The translations under genes were made by a program, and so were the position numbers. Source: Methanothermobacter marburgensis str. Marburg (lineage in GTDB: Archaea; Methanobacteriota; Methanobacteria; Methanobacteriales; Methanothermobacteraceae). From it: a stretch of DNA of 32,000 nucleotides. The number at the start of each line of letters is the position of its first letter. Positions within the stretch are counted from its first letter, which is position 1. Below the pieces are notes generated by a model. That model ran no database searches. It saw only the letters and a list, made by a program, of their open reading frames with translations, and was not told the origin of the DNA. The stretch covers positions 930,001-962,000 of the forward strand of contig NC_014408.1 in NCBI RefSeq assembly GCF_000145295.1, in the 5' to 3' direction. Below are positions 11,753 to 15,473 of the stretch, piece by piece.

Positions 11753-11760
11753 TTTTTTTT
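11753..11760 (+). terminator. T8 tract after the sulfurtransferase gene
   Basis: TCTTTTTTTT lies 13 nt after the stop and overlaps the stop of the convergent CPBP gene. Confidence 0.45.
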
Positions 11761-12556
11761 AACTGAAATCTGTTTTAAGCTCGGATCCTGCAAAGAGGAG
11801 CACTCCAAGAGCTGCAGACACATTGAGTATCATGAGGAACACTCCCCCTGCGATCGTTGACTGGACAGGGAAGAGGAAATAGGAGAGGTTACCTGTTGTA
11901 TGGATTATCATGGCGGCCAGTATGCTCCCGGTTGAATTGTAAACCCATGTGTATATCACCGAGGCAGATATTATGAGGATCATGAAGCTCCAGAAGGGCA
12001 CCTGTGACTGGATACTGCCCTGTATGAAGAACAGCGGTATGTGCCAGAGGCCCCAGATTATCCCCACCATTATGGCAGCGTAGATGGGGGCATACCTCTC
12101 CTGAAGCCGTGGAAGGGCATAGCCCCTCCAGCCGAATTCCTCCTGCAGTGGACCTCCAAGGAAGAAGATGTAGAGGAATACAATAGGAACCAGCAGTGGA
12201 TTTGAGTTCCAGTAGAGGAAGGGCTGTGGATCGCCCCAGAGGACTCCCAGATAGAGTGCAAGAGCTGTAATGACCGGGAAAAGCAGTAAAATTATGGCCC
12301 ACCATATCCTGGGGAAATCACGTTTAATCCCCCTTCTCAGGAATGCAACAAGCTCATCCCTCCCCCCGTACCTGTAGGTCAGTATAATAGCAGCAAGAGT
12401 TGGCCCGAATGCCGCAGGGTTGTAGGGGCTCCTGAGAAAGGACTGGATGGGTTCAGGGAATGTGAAACCTGCAGAGATCATTGCAACAGGTATCCATAAT
12501 ATCCACGAAAACAGGAACGTCAATATAAAAAATTCCGATAGGCGTTCACTCCTCAC
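11759..12556 (-). CDS. CPBP-family (CAAX/Abi) intramembrane glutamic protease
   Basis: Multi-TM protein with all three CPBP motifs: LQEEFGWRG, WGLWH and IIHTTGN. I prefer the GTG at 12556 (AGGAGGAG SD 7 nt upstream) to the ATG at 12586. Confidence 0.8.
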   Translation of the reverse strand: MRSERLSEFFILTFLFSWILWIPVAMISAGFTFPEPIQSFLRSPYNPAAFGPTLAAIILTYRYGGRDELVAFLRRGIKRDFPRIWWAIILLLFPVITALALYLGVLWGDPQPFLYWNSNPLLVPIVFLYIFFLGGPLQEEFGWRGYALPRLQERYAPIYAAIMVGIIWGLWHIPLFFIQGSIQSQVPFWSFMILIISASVIYTWVYNSTGSILAAMIIHTTGNLSYFLFPVQSTIAGGVFLMILNVSAALGVLLFAGSELKTDFS

Positions 12557-12764
12557 AAGAATCTCCTCCTGAAGACACGAAATCATCCATGAAAATAACA
12601 GGGTATCTTAAATCACCTTCCATCAAGACACACATTATAGGTTCCACTGATACCGCATTTATAGTTTTTCCAGTTAAAATAAACCTTAACCTGAAAACCG
12701 GTACAATAACCCTCCCATCCACATTCATGGCCTCAGCCGTGTATGTGCAATCAACAATCCTCAT
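12546..12764 (-). CDS. candidate small protein (72 aa) inside the GerW/YtfI/CPBP operon
   Basis: The ORF fills the gap between two same-strand genes. GGTGGG lies 4 nt before the ATG at 12764. Its stop overlaps the CPBP start (GTGAGGAGTGA). A 64-codon ORF is also open on the opposite strand, so the coding call is tentative. Confidence 0.4.
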   Translation of the reverse strand: MRIVDCTYTAEAMNVDGRVIVPVFRLRFILTGKTINAVSVEPIMCVLMEGDLRYPVIFMDDFVSSGGDSCEE

Positions 12765-12777
12765 AAATCCCACCGGT

Positions 12778-13347
12778 TCATGAAAATTCCCTTAGTCCCA
12801 GAACAAATTCCCTGAAGGGTCTCTTTAAAAGAAGCATGATAAACACCAGAACAGGTTTCAGGGGTCTTAAACTCAGTTCAAGTTCAAAGTTTCCATTCAC
12901 ATCCCCACTGAAGAAATCAGGGGCCGCATTTATTTCAATATTCCTTAAAGATGACGTTAATGCTGAAATGGCCCATAAGTATCCTGTTATGATTGCGGTA
13001 TCTGAAGCCTCCCCAAGGCCCACTGAAACACTTATCCTAGCCCTCCTTATGGTGATGGATGACAGCAGGGCACCGATGAGATCCATTATACACCATCTGG
13101 CCTTTAACCCCAACAGTAAAACCTCTCTCAATGGCCTGGGCTTCGCTTCAACCATGGTTCCCTCCTTTATTTCGCTTTTAAACCTTTTACTTAAAAATTT
13201 CATCCCCCAGAGCATTAAACTTATCCTTAACTCAGTTCTTCCGGCATCCCTTACTCCGCTTAAAATAAGCCTGTAGGGCAATGCAAGGAGAACCAGGAGA
13301 AGTACCGCCAGAAAAATTAATGGCAGAACCAGAAGGAGCCCATTCAT
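12778..13347 (-). CDS. membrane-anchored protein, probable DUF2953/YtfI-like
   Basis: 189 aa. N-terminal TM helix (LLLVLPLIFLAVLLLVLLAL), then a soluble body. It starts 7 nt after the GerW-like gene, the same pairing as B. subtilis ytfI-ytfJ. The family assignment rests on architecture and context, not a motif. Confidence 0.55.
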   Translation of the reverse strand: MNGLLLVLPLIFLAVLLLVLLALPYRLILSGVRDAGRTELRISLMLWGMKFLSKRFKSEIKEGTMVEAKPRPLREVLLLGLKARWCIMDLIGALLSSITIRRARISVSVGLGEASDTAIITGYLWAISALTSSLRNIEINAAPDFFSGDVNGNFELELSLRPLKPVLVFIMLLLKRPFREFVLGLREFS

Positions 13348-13354
13348 TGTCTAT

Positions 13355-13743
13355 TCAGTCTCCACTCTCACCTTCAGGTTCACCCTTATCTGCAATCTCC
13401 TTTATTATGTCCGTGACAGTGGACCCAAGCTCCTGTATTATCCTCCCCGTGCTCCCGGCGCGGAGGTCAATGACCCTCACACCATCGGGCCTTTAACTCC
13501 CCTGAGAAGGACTATCACCGCAACGGGCTCGGCTCCTGCAGCCGCACCTGCCCCGCTTCCAGAGCCTCCCTCAGACTCTGAGGAGGTCCCCTCACCCATA
13601 CCAACCCCAAAGCCAACCCCCATCTTCATGAGGGGTATCAGCACCTTATCCTCCGTCTCGATGGCCTCACCCACAAGGTTCTTAACGTCCAGGAGACTGC
13701 GGAGCTCCTCAACGGTTGTTTTAATTGGTTCCTCAATTTTCAT
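13355..13743 (-). pseudogene. GerW/YtfJ-family protein, interrupted by an apparent 1-nt deletion
   Basis: Frame A (13743-13477) gives ...VGEAIETEDKVLIPLMKMGVGFGVGMGEG..Gly/Ser/Ala linker..PVAVIVLLRGVKGP then a stop. Frame B (13486-13355) continues DGVRVIDLRAGSTGRIIQEL...GESGD*. Together they match the full YtfJ family layout. The break sits in the run at 13487-13489. Confidence 0.7.
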
Positions 13744-13850
13744 TTTAAATCACATTAAACTATATGTATGTTCAACCATATCACAGTTTGCATCAAAACA
13801 CTTATATGGTTGGATCCATACTTATTCAATCTGGAGGCGGTAAAGTGGAT

Positions 13851-14327
13851 ATGAAAACAGTGATTTTAATTGCGGTGATTCTCATTGCTGGAGTATCAGC
13901 AGGAGTCTACATTCTCACCGCAACAGATGGTAACGATAAAACGGAAGTGAAAAATTTAAACGGGAAAAATCAGACCACAGGCACGGCCAGGATTGTAGCA
14001 ACCCAGAGGGGTCCTGAAACTGCAAGGCCCGGCTCAAATATTACAGTGACGTGTAAGATAAAAAATGAGGGTAAAGGACCGGCTAAAAACGTTAAGGTAT
14101 TGTCTCAGGACTTTGAAAGGTCCTTTGATGTCATAGAAGCGGGTGAAGAGGTGGAGTTTCAGGTCCAGATATACATACCGACCGAGGAGGAGGTTAAGGA
14201 GGACTTCGGGGAAAACGCCACACTATCGAACCCATTCTTCATAGGTGGTTTCAGCGTCACCTACACTGATTTAAGTGGAAAACACAGTTTAAATTCCAAT
14301 TCTCTGGAGATACCCCTCCAGATCTAA
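13851..14327 (+). CDS. signal-anchored protein with a CARDB-like beta domain
   Basis: GGAGG SD before the ATG at 13851. MKTVILIAVILIAGVSAGVYIL is the anchor. PGSNITVTCKIKNEGKGPAKNVKV...AGEEVEFQVQI resembles CARDB/adhesion-type domains. The upstream extension to 13764 was rejected. Confidence 0.55.
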   Translation: MKTVILIAVILIAGVSAGVYILTATDGNDKTEVKNLNGKNQTTGTARIVATQRGPETARPGSNITVTCKIKNEGKGPAKNVKVLSQDFERSFDVIEAGEEVEFQVQIYIPTEEEVKEDFGENATLSNPFFIGGFSVTYTDLSGKHSLNSNSLEIPLQI

Positions 14328-14916: not shown

Positions 14917-15336
14917 TCAGATCCTGATAAGCACCACACCCCCAACCACCATGAGCAACCCGATGGCCTTTGCCACCGTTACCCTCTCACCCAGAAGAAA
15001 TGCCGCAACTATCAGTGTGAACACCGGGAAGGCCGCAACCACAGGTACAACTATTGAAGCCTCCCCTGATTTTAGCGCATAATAATAGAATAGCTGCCCC
15101 AGAAGGGCTGCTGATATACCATCCAGTGCCAGGAAGAACCATCCCCTCGGATCCACATCTGAGAGAGCATCCAGTCCACCGCTTAACATGACCCATACGA
15201 GCATGACCATGGTTATGACAGAAGTTCTTATTGTAAGGGCGATCCCAGGGTTAACGCCTTCAAGTCCTATTTTGCTGAAAACTGGGGCCAGACCAAACAT
15301 CAACGCTGCAAGGAGCGCGAAAACAAGGTAGTTCAA
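14917..15336 (-). CDS. small EamA-domain (DMT superfamily) membrane transporter
   Basis: 139 aa, four hydrophobic helices, single EamA-like domain. TTG start at 15336 with GAGGTGAT SD 3 nt upstream. The first 11 codons lie inside the tandem repeat. Confidence 0.6.
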   Translation of the reverse strand: MNYLVFALLAALMFGLAPVFSKIGLEGVNPGIALTIRTSVITMVMLVWVMLSGGLDALSDVDPRGWFFLALDGISAALLGQLFYYYALKSGEASIVVPVVAAFPVFTLIVAAFLLGERVTVAKAIGLLMVVGGVVLIRI

Positions 15337-15473
15337 GACATCACCTCAAATGATATATGGGATTAACGCTGCAAGGAGCGCGAAAACAAGGTAGTTCAAG
15401 ACATCACCTCAAATGATATATGGGATTAACGCTGCAAGGAGCGCGAAAACAAGGTAGTTCAAGACATCACCTC
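15302..15473. repeat. 63-bp perfect tandem repeat, 2.7 copies
   Basis: Units at 15302-15364, 15365-15427 and 15428-15473 are identical by direct reading. Each contains the SD, the TTG start and 11 codons of the EamA gene. Confidence 0.95.

What the first reader, a model, noticed from the sequence alone, without database searches (positions are those of the whole stretch)
11759..13743. Sporulation-type GerW/YtfJ and YtfI-like pair wired to a CPBP protease in a non-sporulating archaeon
Seen: four same-strand genes with minimal spacing. First, a GerW/YtfJ-like protein (13743-13355; ...LIPLMKMGVGFGVGMGEG, a Gly/Ser/Ala linker, PVAVIVLL, DGVRVIDL). After a 7-nt gap comes a 189-aa N-terminally anchored protein (13347-12778). 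Next is a 72-codon ORF (12764-12546). Finally there is an 11-nt overlap (GTGAGGAGTGA) into a CPBP intramembrane protease whose GTG at 12556 has an AGGAGGAG SD. Known: in Bacillus subtilis ytfI (DUF2953) and ytfJ/gerW are an adjacent sporulation-expressed pair whose molecular function is unresolved. Methanothermobacter does not sporulate. Inference: the pair has a more general envelope or membrane function, here possibly as substrate or regulator of the co-translated CPBP protease. This is the second CPBP gene in 8 kb.
Basis: partly seen in the sequence, partly recalled or inferred. Interest (0 to 1): 0.65.

Follow-up and report, generated by a model that had tools for sequence, protein, structure and literature searches.

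The report
Archaeal YtfJ–DUF2953–small-protein operon, first gene frameshifted
A methanogen carries a three-gene set related to a bacterial spore-protein pair of unknown function; the neighbouring membrane protease is only a genus-specific add-on, and in this strain the first gene is broken by a one-base deletion.

Summary
The four same-strand genes, their spacing, the 11-nt overlap and the SD/GTG start are as described. The family calls hold: Spore_YtfJ, DUF2953 and Rce1-like/CPBP all pass Pfam cut-offs. A C4→C3 deletion at 13489-13487 splits it into 88-aa and 41-aa pieces. Six independent contigs share this allele, while four near-identical relatives and all other clades are intact.

The CPBP link is not general. 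It occurs in all three Methanothermobacter clades, whose whole neighbourhood is syntenic. It is absent from every other lineage sampled (36 metagenome loci plus five lineages from protein look-ups).

What travels with YtfJ is DUF2953 (71/76 loci) plus a small third gene (55/55), which here is the 72-codon ORF. That ORF is a real gene (dN/dS 0.24-0.34). It is probably a YtfJ paralogue lacking the glycine-rich loop (hhalign P=1e-4, 0/400 shuffles as good, matching predicted strand order).

These archaeal genes are already annotated as "GerW family". YtfJ expression in non-sporulating bacteria is already published. The function remains unknown. The finding is ordinary-to-modest, and the conserved third gene is the only new element.

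The parts
13477..13743 (-). YtfJ/GerW-family gene, 5' fragment (88 aa, ends ..GVKGPMV*). It contains the N-terminal helix and the long Gly-rich beta-hairpin.
   Evidence: Gene callers annotate the 88-aa product as PF09579 in L003, L006, L007, L008, L010 and L011.
13487..13489 (-). Frameshift site: a CCC run where intact alleles have CCCC (one-base deletion).
   Evidence: the window and L003/L006/L007/L008/L010/L011 have GGCCCGAT; L004/L005/L009/L012 have GGCCCCGAT; the C3 allele always sits on the window-type upstream haplotype.
13355..13480 (-). YtfJ 3' fragment in the shifted frame (41 aa from GTG 13480; MRVIDLRAG...ESGD*). Its GTG overlaps the upstream TGA as GTGA (13480-13477).
   Evidence: Called as a separate 41-aa gene in L011 and present as P0149.
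12778..13347 (-). DUF2953 (YtfI-like) protein, 189 aa. It has an N-terminal hydrophobic anchor (res ~4-24) followed by a basic stretch, and an invariant DTAIITGYLW motif.
   Evidence: PF11167, 35.4 bits vs 22; alignment; dN/dS 0.27-0.32.
12546..12764 (-). Third gene: a 72-aa all-beta protein with an acidic, Cys-containing tail (..GGDSCEE). It is the positional homologue of a small gene that follows DUF2953 in all lineages, and is probably a loop-less YtfJ paralogue.
   Evidence: always called; no Pfam hit; 72-79% identity between clades; dN/dS 0.24-0.34; hhalign vs YtfJ: prob 57%, P=1.1e-4, 0/400 shuffles reach it; AF2 pLDDT 78.
12563..12570 (-). AGGAGGAG Shine-Dalgarno-like element inside the small ORF, 6 nt upstream of the CPBP GTG.
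   Evidence: sequence.
11759..12556 (-). CPBP/Rce1-like intramembrane protease, 265 aa from GTG 12556. It has the EEFGWR, LWH and HTTGN motifs and overlaps the small ORF by 11 nt.
   Evidence: PF02517, 71.5 bits; motifs; start supported by orthologues; dN/dS 0.06-0.11.
13744..13850 (.). Divergent intergenic region between YtfJ and the CARDB-like gene. It contains a TATA-like TACATATA about 19-26 nt upstream of the YtfJ ATG and is a candidate promoter region (not verified).
   Evidence: sequence; a similar sequence is present in L001. This is inference only. The sigma-70 scan does not apply to archaea.

Best explanation
The locus is the Methanothermobacter version of a three-gene operon conserved across Methanobacteriales.

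Its three genes are:
1. A soluble YtfJ/GerW-family protein built around a long beta-hairpin with a Gly-rich tip.
2. A DUF2953 (YtfI-like) protein held in the membrane by one N-terminal helix. The rest of it is predicted to face the cytoplasm.
3. A small all-beta protein that is most likely a YtfJ paralogue without the Gly-rich loop.

Inferred mechanism: the two hairpin proteins assemble on the cytoplasmic domain of DUF2953, forming a membrane-proximal complex. Its biochemical activity is unknown.

In the genus Methanothermobacter a catalytically competent CPBP protease gene has been appended to the 3' end of this operon. It is translationally coupled in two clades and separated by 29 nt in the third. 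It is not part of the conserved module.

In the strain sequenced here (CP069376.1) a real, inherited one-base deletion splits the YtfJ gene. The module is therefore impaired or dispensable in this lineage.

Shown: family membership, gene order, conservation, purifying selection and the frameshift allele. Inferred: the complex, the topology, homology of the third gene to YtfJ, and co-transcription.
For: - Families.
- Gene order YtfJ-DUF2953-small ORF in three Methanothermobacter clades. The same order holds in Methanobacterium-like, Methanobrevibacter and three other lineages.
- Survey of 80 metagenome loci: DUF2953 follows in 71/76 and a third ORF follows in 55/55.
- CPBP occurs only in Methanothermobacter loci, by HMM and by motif screen, with positive controls recovered.
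- dN/dS is below 0.35 for all four genes.
- Third gene vs YtfJ: the hhalign score rises with profile diversity in the same register. Score is 32.6, against a maximum of 19.9 (column shuffles) and 31.7 (block shuffles), with 0/400 reaching it.
- The AF2 element order matches. Small protein: E18-31/E34-49 then E52-57. YtfJ: E33-50/E62-80 then E89-93.
- Frameshift. The 88-aa allele is present in NCBI, ENA and Logan data.
- Topology: no signal peptides, and the basic residues lie after the DUF2953 helix (sequence plus the positive-inside rule).
- Consistent bacterial data: GerW is soluble in spores (PMC4366231). A DUF2953 protein is found in the B. cereus spore inner membrane (PMC8624511). YtfJ is enriched in the insoluble fraction of Faecalibacterium (PMC13020158).
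Against: - There are no expression, interaction or phenotype data for any archaeal member.
- Third-gene homology to YtfJ is only moderately supported. hhalign probability is 57%, there is no Pfam hit, and plain HMMER shows no cross-hits between the two families at E<1e-3.
- The YtfJ model has low confidence (pLDDT 62). Neither model matches any solved fold, so structure gives no functional clue.
- Some YtfJ genes occur without DUF2953 (L002, L062, L071, L083), so YtfJ can act without it.
- My sampling was seeded from Methanothermobacter sequences and is biased towards Methanobacteriales.
Confidence: 0.6

Rival explanations
1. One reading: the YtfJ/DUF2953 pair (or the small protein) is a substrate or regulator of the co-translated CPBP protease, at least in Methanothermobacter.
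For: - An 11-nt overlap with an internal SD occurs in two clades.
- The CPBP keeps all catalytic motifs and is under strong purifying selection.
- Only the CPBP-linked small proteins end in Cys-containing tails (..GGDSCEE..GGDCIEE..GPCDPHTL..PLCLC). Third-gene products in CPBP-less lineages have no C-terminal Cys.
- Loss-of-function indels in YtfJ and in the CPBP co-occur in one reactor population.
Against: - The CPBP is absent from every non-Methanothermobacter locus: 36 metagenome loci with at least 900 nt downstream, plus five lineages from look-ups.
- The thermautotrophicus-type clade has a 29-nt gap rather than an overlap.
- The whole neighbourhood (GyrI-like, EamA, rhodanese, MgtE) is syntenic in the genus, so adjacency may simply be inherited.
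- The Cys position is not fixed (-3, -4, -6, -1), so there is no CaaX box.
- CPBP genes are common here; a second one lies 6 kb away.
Confidence: 0.2
2. In this strain the operon is a decaying remnant: the YtfJ frameshift abolishes function and the remaining genes are on the way to loss.
For: - The frameshift removes the third strand and the C-terminal helix.
- Related reactor contigs carry an additional 2-nt deletion splitting the CPBP into 221 + 50 aa.
- Bacillus gerW mutants show no phenotype (PMC4366231), which is compatible with dispensability.
Against: - DUF2953, the small ORF and the CPBP are intact in the window.
- The split is recent: contigs are 99.2-100% identical, so there has been no time for decay to show.
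- The GTG of the 3' fragment overlaps the stop of the 5' fragment (GTGA, 13480-13477). Termination-reinitiation could therefore yield two fragments that might complement each other (inference).
Confidence: 0.3
3. The frameshift is an assembly or sequencing error, and the strain really has an intact 129-aa YtfJ.
For: It lies in a short homopolymer. A second frameshift 4.5 kb away (in the 645-aa gene, around 18000-18075) is found only in this assembly.
Against: The same C3 allele is present in six other contigs from at least two independent projects: PRJEB21266 short-read metagenome assemblies and Logan assemblies of SRR22315765/67. It always sits on the same flanking haplotype. The 88-aa product occurs in NCBI, ENA and Logan.
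Confidence: 0.06

Closest known systems
Bacillus subtilis ytfI-ytfJ (gerW), a sigma-F forespore pair
   Same: The two Pfam families are the same (DUF2953 + Spore_YtfJ) and the genes are adjacent. One protein is soluble with a Gly-rich variable region and the other is a single-anchor membrane protein. The function is unknown and there is no clear knockout phenotype (PMC4366231; both genes are in the SigF regulon, PMC3097244).
   Different: - The archaeal YtfJ scores 44 bits against the sporulation equivalog TIGR02874, well below its cut-off of 116.3.
- The host does not sporulate.
- The gene order here is YtfJ then DUF2953 then a third small gene. From memory (not verified here), the Bacillus operon is ytfI then ytfJ. 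If so, Bacillus ytfJ would correspond positionally to the archaeal third gene.
- No third gene has been described in Bacillus.
YtfJ-family proteins of non-sporulating bacteria (Fibrobacter succinogenes Fisuc_0582, Faecalibacterium duncaniae C7H5G3, Ruminococcus flavefaciens)
   Same: These are family members expressed in vegetative, non-sporulating cells. In Faecalibacterium the protein is enriched in the insoluble fraction (PMC5442110, PMC13020158, PMC3672088).
   Different: They are bacterial, and their gene neighbourhoods were not examined here. No partner proteins are reported.
CPBP / Rce1-like intramembrane glutamic proteases (e.g. Methanococcus maripaludis MmRce1)
   Same: The Pfam PF02517 domain and the EExxxR, FxxxH and HxxxN motifs are present.
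   Different: The score is 65.5 bits against the MmRce1 equivalog cut-off of 425, so this is not an orthologue. The substrate is unknown, and the operon context with YtfJ/DUF2953 is genus-specific.

Membership tests
Spore_YtfJ (Pfam PF09579) | Score above the Pfam gathering cut-off | tested here: met
   50.1 bits vs 25, residues 28-107, on the frame-repaired 129-aa sequence. The intact orthologues carry PF09579.
Spore_YtfJ (Pfam PF09579) | Intact open reading frame in this window | tested here: not met
   A one-base deletion at 13489-13487 splits the gene into 88 + 41 aa.
GerW/YtfJ sporulation equivalog (NCBIfam TIGR02874) | Score above the equivalog cut-off (116.3 bits) | tested here: not met
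   44.2 bits. This is a distant family member, not the sporulation orthologue.
GerW/YtfJ sporulation equivalog (NCBIfam TIGR02874) | Forespore-specific (sigma-F) expression in an endospore former | not testable with these tools
   The host is a Methanothermobacter, which does not form spores (established knowledge). No expression data are available.
DUF2953 (Pfam PF11167; YtfI-like) | Score above the Pfam gathering cut-off | tested here: met
   35.4 bits vs 22, residues 109-145. The motif DTAIITGYLW is invariant in the alignment.
ytfI/ytfJ-type gene pair | DUF2953 and YtfJ genes adjacent on the same strand | tested here: met
   A 7-nt gap in the window. DUF2953 lies immediately downstream of YtfJ in 71/76 assessable metagenome loci and in all look-ups except L002.
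CPBP / Rce1-like (Pfam PF02517) | Score above the gathering cut-off, with the catalytic motifs EExxxR, FxxxH and HxxxN/D | tested here: met
   71.5 bits vs 22.4. EEFGWR...LWH...HTTGN are present.
MmRce1 equivalog (NCBIfam NF041656) | Score above the equivalog cut-off (425 bits) | tested here: not met
   65.5 bits.
Third gene as a YtfJ-family member | Significant sequence or profile similarity to Spore_YtfJ | tested here: inconclusive
   No Pfam or NCBIfam hit and no HMMER cross-hit. hhalign gives prob 57%, P=1.1e-4, score 32.6, with 0/400 shuffles reaching it. The predicted strand order is concordant.
YtfJ-DUF2953 module functionally coupled to CPBP | CPBP gene co-occurs with the module across lineages | tested here: not met
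   The CPBP is found only in Methanothermobacter loci and is absent from all other lineages sampled.

The most novel reading that the evidence does not exclude
The YtfJ/YtfI 'spore' pair would really be a three-component, membrane-proximal assembly: a YtfJ hairpin protein, a loop-less YtfJ paralogue and a DUF2953 scaffold. It would be shared between endospore-forming Firmicutes and the pseudomurein-walled Methanobacteriales, and so have a general envelope-related role. In Methanothermobacter the Cys-containing acidic C-terminal tail of the small subunit would be processed by the appended CPBP protease in a CaaX-like manner. That would give the first natural substrate for an archaeal CPBP.
Probability: 0.1. 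Interest if true: 0.6.

Novelty: new member of a known kind. Interest (0 to 1): 0.33.

Why it matters
YtfJ/GerW and YtfI are among the conserved "sporulation signature" proteins whose function has resisted genetics. The published germination phenotype was retracted by later work (PMC4366231).

The pair sits in a stable three-gene operon throughout a non-sporulating archaeal order, under purifying selection. This shows the module is not sporulation-specific. It also points to a previously unnoticed third partner, which could guide interaction and structural studies in both domains.

Natural intact and frameshifted alleles exist in near-isogenic Methanothermobacter strains (KEPCO-1 type versus CP069376.1 type). 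This offers a ready-made comparison.

The protease link that made the finding look exciting is, however, only a genus-level neighbourhood feature. The presence of these families in methanogens is already recorded in public annotation.

Tried and rejected
- **Exhaustive HMMER search with the small-ORF profile** (1.84 billion representatives). It found only Methanothermobacter relatives plus RCC1-repeat pilin-like proteins (P0139-P0144). The latter were rejected as spurious: the match is to a repeated beta-strand motif, and Pfam shows RCC1/N_methyl domains.
- **Foldseek against PDB** for the YtfJ model (best E 0.12, TM ≤0.28) and the small-protein model (best E 0.39). Neither gave an informative match.
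- **PDB sequence searches** with the YtfJ, DUF2953 and third-gene profiles. Nothing significant was found.
- **tblastn of YtfJ against the plasmid collection**, intended to see bacterial contexts. There was no match, so the Bacillus gene order could not be verified with the tools.
- **Sigma-70 promoter and terminator scan**. This does not apply to an archaeon and gave counts equal to shuffles.
- **Programmed frameshifting or phase variation at the C-run.** Rejected because the intact C4 form is ancestral in all clades, the run is only 3-4 bases long, and the C3 allele is tied to one haplotype.
- **Genome-contig scan**. It returned only two loci because single-sequence patterns reach only close relatives.
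- **First hhalign attempts with shallow alignments.** These were non-significant (prob 1.3% and 6%). Only the 10-lineage alignment gave a usable signal.
Full report
**Observation**

On the minus strand of the window lie four closely packed ORFs. A 189-aa ORF runs 13347-12778 and a 72-codon ORF runs 12764-12546. A CPBP ORF ends at 11759. Its GTG at 12556 is preceded by AGGAGGAG (12570-12563) and overlaps the small ORF by 11 nt (GTGAGGAGTGA).

The GTG start is the one supported by orthologues, which begin at the equivalent residue (VRSERLSEFF / LKSERISDF / MENDRISDFF).

The first gene is not as described. The span 13743-13355 is 389 nt and reads as an 88-aa ORF ending ..GVKGPMV* (13743-13477). 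The remainder continues in another frame (..PDGVRVIDLRAG..ESGD*).

After hand repair the product hits Spore_YtfJ (50.1 bits, cut-off 25). The 189-aa protein hits DUF2953 (35.4 vs 22) and the last gene hits Rce1-like (71.5 vs 22.4). The "second CPBP" is the TPR + Rce1-like gene at 18532-19794.

**The frameshift**

Look-ups of the identical DUF2953 protein returned ten near-identical contigs.
- The window and six contigs read GGCCCGAT. These are L003, L006, L008 and L011 from the PRJEB21266 reactor metagenomes, and L007 and L010 from Logan assemblies.
- Four contigs read GGCCCCGAT and encode an intact 129-aa protein. These are L004, L005 (CP042937.1, Methanothermobacter sp. KEPCO-1), L009 and L012.
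- All more distant clades are intact.

A haplotype table shows the C3 allele always sits on the window-type upstream haplotype, which fits a single origin. L003/L006/L008 switch to the KEPCO-1-type haplotype downstream of about 13250. This is either recombination or assembly chimerism. These contigs also carry an independent 2-nt deletion that splits the CPBP.

The 88-aa product is on record from NCBI, ENA and Logan. The deletion is therefore a real allele, not an artefact of this assembly (CP069376.1).

The GTG of the 3' fragment overlaps the TGA of the 5' fragment (GTGA, 13480-13477). Reinitiation could therefore produce both pieces. That is an inference.

**What travels with YtfJ**

YtfJ homologues are widespread in Methanobacteriales and already carry "GerW family sporulation protein" names. 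Neighbourhoods were read at increasing distance.
- Three Methanothermobacter clades keep YtfJ-DUF2953-small ORF-CPBP with the same flanking genes: GyrI-like, EamA, rhodanese and MgtE. The thermautotrophicus-type clade has a 29-nt gap instead of the overlap.
- Outside the genus the order is still YtfJ-DUF2953-small ORF (67-134 aa, no Pfam hit).
- The next gene there is a PAS kinase, an amino-acid permease, a histone, or a gene on the opposite strand.

A scan of metagenome contigs with the YtfJ profile gave 80 loci. I scored them with HMMs built from my own alignments.
- DUF2953 follows YtfJ in 71 of 76 assessable loci.
- A same-strand ORF of at least 55 aa starts within -40 to +130 nt of the DUF2953 stop in 55 of 55 assessable loci.
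- The 17 ORFs not recognised by my HMM share the same motif.

A CPBP was found only in the one Methanothermobacter locus. A model-independent motif screen (EExxx[RK]...xxxH...Hxxx[ND]) over 854 ORFs in 111 loci gave true positives only in Methanothermobacter. Both window CPBPs were recovered as controls.

The conserved unit is therefore a trio, and the CPBP is a genus-specific neighbour. A minority of YtfJ genes stand alone, some with a CGCGCEEEEE tail.

**The 72-codon ORF**

It is 72-79% identical between clades in which DUF2953 is only about 54% identical. Its dN/dS is 0.24-0.34, so it is a genuine coding gene.

Across lineages its products share the pattern G.R.(I/F)(V/Y)P... then ...P(I/V)A..V.E...Y. 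This mirrors the two long strands of YtfJ (..DK.LIP(V/L)..M... and ..EP(I/V)A(M/V).V).

Profile-profile comparison improved steadily as diversity was added, always in the same register:
- prob 1.3%
- prob 6%
- prob 57%, P=1.1e-4, score 32.6

The controls are clear. No column shuffle (max 19.9) and no 8-column block shuffle (max 31.7) reached that score, 0 of 400 in total. Comparison with the unrelated DUF2953 profile scored 9.7.

The AlphaFold models agree in element order:
- Small protein: pLDDT 78, with 83-94 over residues 1-50. Short strands, then a long hairpin (18-31/34-49), then strand 52-57.
- YtfJ: pLDDT 62. A long hairpin (33-50/62-80) with the Gly-rich tip, then strand 89-93 and a helix.

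I regard homology as probable (about 0.6), not proven. Pfam, NCBIfam and plain HMMER do not connect the two families. Neither model matches a solved fold.

**Likely mechanism**

None of the three proteins has a signal peptide. DUF2953 has one N-terminal hydrophobic helix followed by a basic segment. By the positive-inside rule, this places its conserved domain (DTAIITGYLW motif) in the cytoplasm.

I infer a complex on the cytoplasmic face of the membrane, in which the two hairpin proteins bind the DUF2953 scaffold. Bacterial observations are compatible with this:
- GerW is soluble in spores (PMC4366231).
- A DUF2953 protein is found in the B. cereus spore inner membrane (PMC8624511).
- YtfJ is enriched in the insoluble fraction of Faecalibacterium (PMC13020158).

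The biochemical activity remains unknown.

The CPBP retains all catalytic motifs and is strongly constrained (dN/dS 0.06-0.11). Its coupling to the trio is probably co-transcription of a neighbour. One hint for a real link is that only the CPBP-linked small proteins end in Cys-containing tails. However, the Cys position is not fixed.

**Comparison with known systems**

The closest known system is the B. subtilis sigma-F pair ytfI-ytfJ/gerW (PMC3097244, PMC4366231).

The archaeal YtfJ is a Pfam family member but fails the sporulation equivalog TIGR02874 (44.2 vs 116.3 bits). The CPBP fails the MmRce1 equivalog (65.5 vs 425).

A non-sporulation role for YtfJ is already implied by published expression in Fibrobacter, Faecalibacterium and Ruminococcus, and by the existing archaeal annotations. 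No paper in the held library discusses the archaeal genes or a third partner.

**Verdict**

This is a new member of a known kind. The useful additions are the conserved third gene, which is probably YtfJ-like, and the natural frameshift allele.

Noticed in passing
window 15302-15473: A perfect 63-nt tandem repeat, 2.7 copies at 100% identity. It spans the 5' end of the EamA-family gene (14917-15336) and its upstream region. L004 and L005 carry about one extra 63-nt unit here, so copy number varies between near-identical strains.
   Followed up: partly
window 16587-18523 (+), frame switch near 18000-18075: A gene that encodes one 645-649-aa P-loop-containing protein in relatives is split here into 531/540-aa and 171-aa ORFs. 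tblastn with the L014 orthologue changes frame. The truncated product was found only in this assembly (CP069376.1), so, unlike the YtfJ allele, it is not independently corroborated.
   Followed up: partly
window 18532-19794 (+): A second CPBP: a 420-aa protein with N-terminal TPR repeats and a C-terminal Rce1-like domain (EELLFR...HGISN). It lies 6 kb from the operon CPBP.
   Followed up: partly
L003/L006/L008, equivalent to window 11955-11956: Reactor-metagenome contigs carry a 2-nt deletion (ATAT to AT) that splits the CPBP gene into 221 + 50 aa. The same contigs are haplotype mosaics: window-type upstream of about 13490 and KEPCO-1-type downstream of about 13250. This reflects either recombination or assembly chimerism.
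   Followed up: partly
L062, L071, L083, L084 (also L002, L063, L068, L108): Stand-alone YtfJ paralogues without an adjacent DUF2953. One group ends in a Cys-rich acidic tail (..CGCGCEEEEE), reminiscent of the ..GGDSCEE tail of the Methanothermobacter small protein.
   Followed up: no
window 13764-14327 (+): A divergently transcribed CARDB-like protein with an N-terminal hydrophobic anchor (Pfam CARDB 24.8 bits). It is conserved next to YtfJ in all Methanothermobacter clades but not elsewhere.
   Followed up: no
P0139-P0144 (library hits, not in the window): The small-ORF profile weakly matches the repeats of bacterial RCC1-repeat proteins that have type IV pilin-like N-termini (GKT[IV]K.IS...C[VI]IASDD..YCWG). 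This was judged to be convergent beta-strand similarity amplified by repetition.
   Followed up: yes
window 10821 and 11760 (relative to L003-L006): Small indel polymorphisms between near-identical strains: a 31-nt insertion upstream of the rhodanese gene in L003/L006, and an A8 versus A7 run between the convergent CPBP and rhodanese genes.
   Followed up: no
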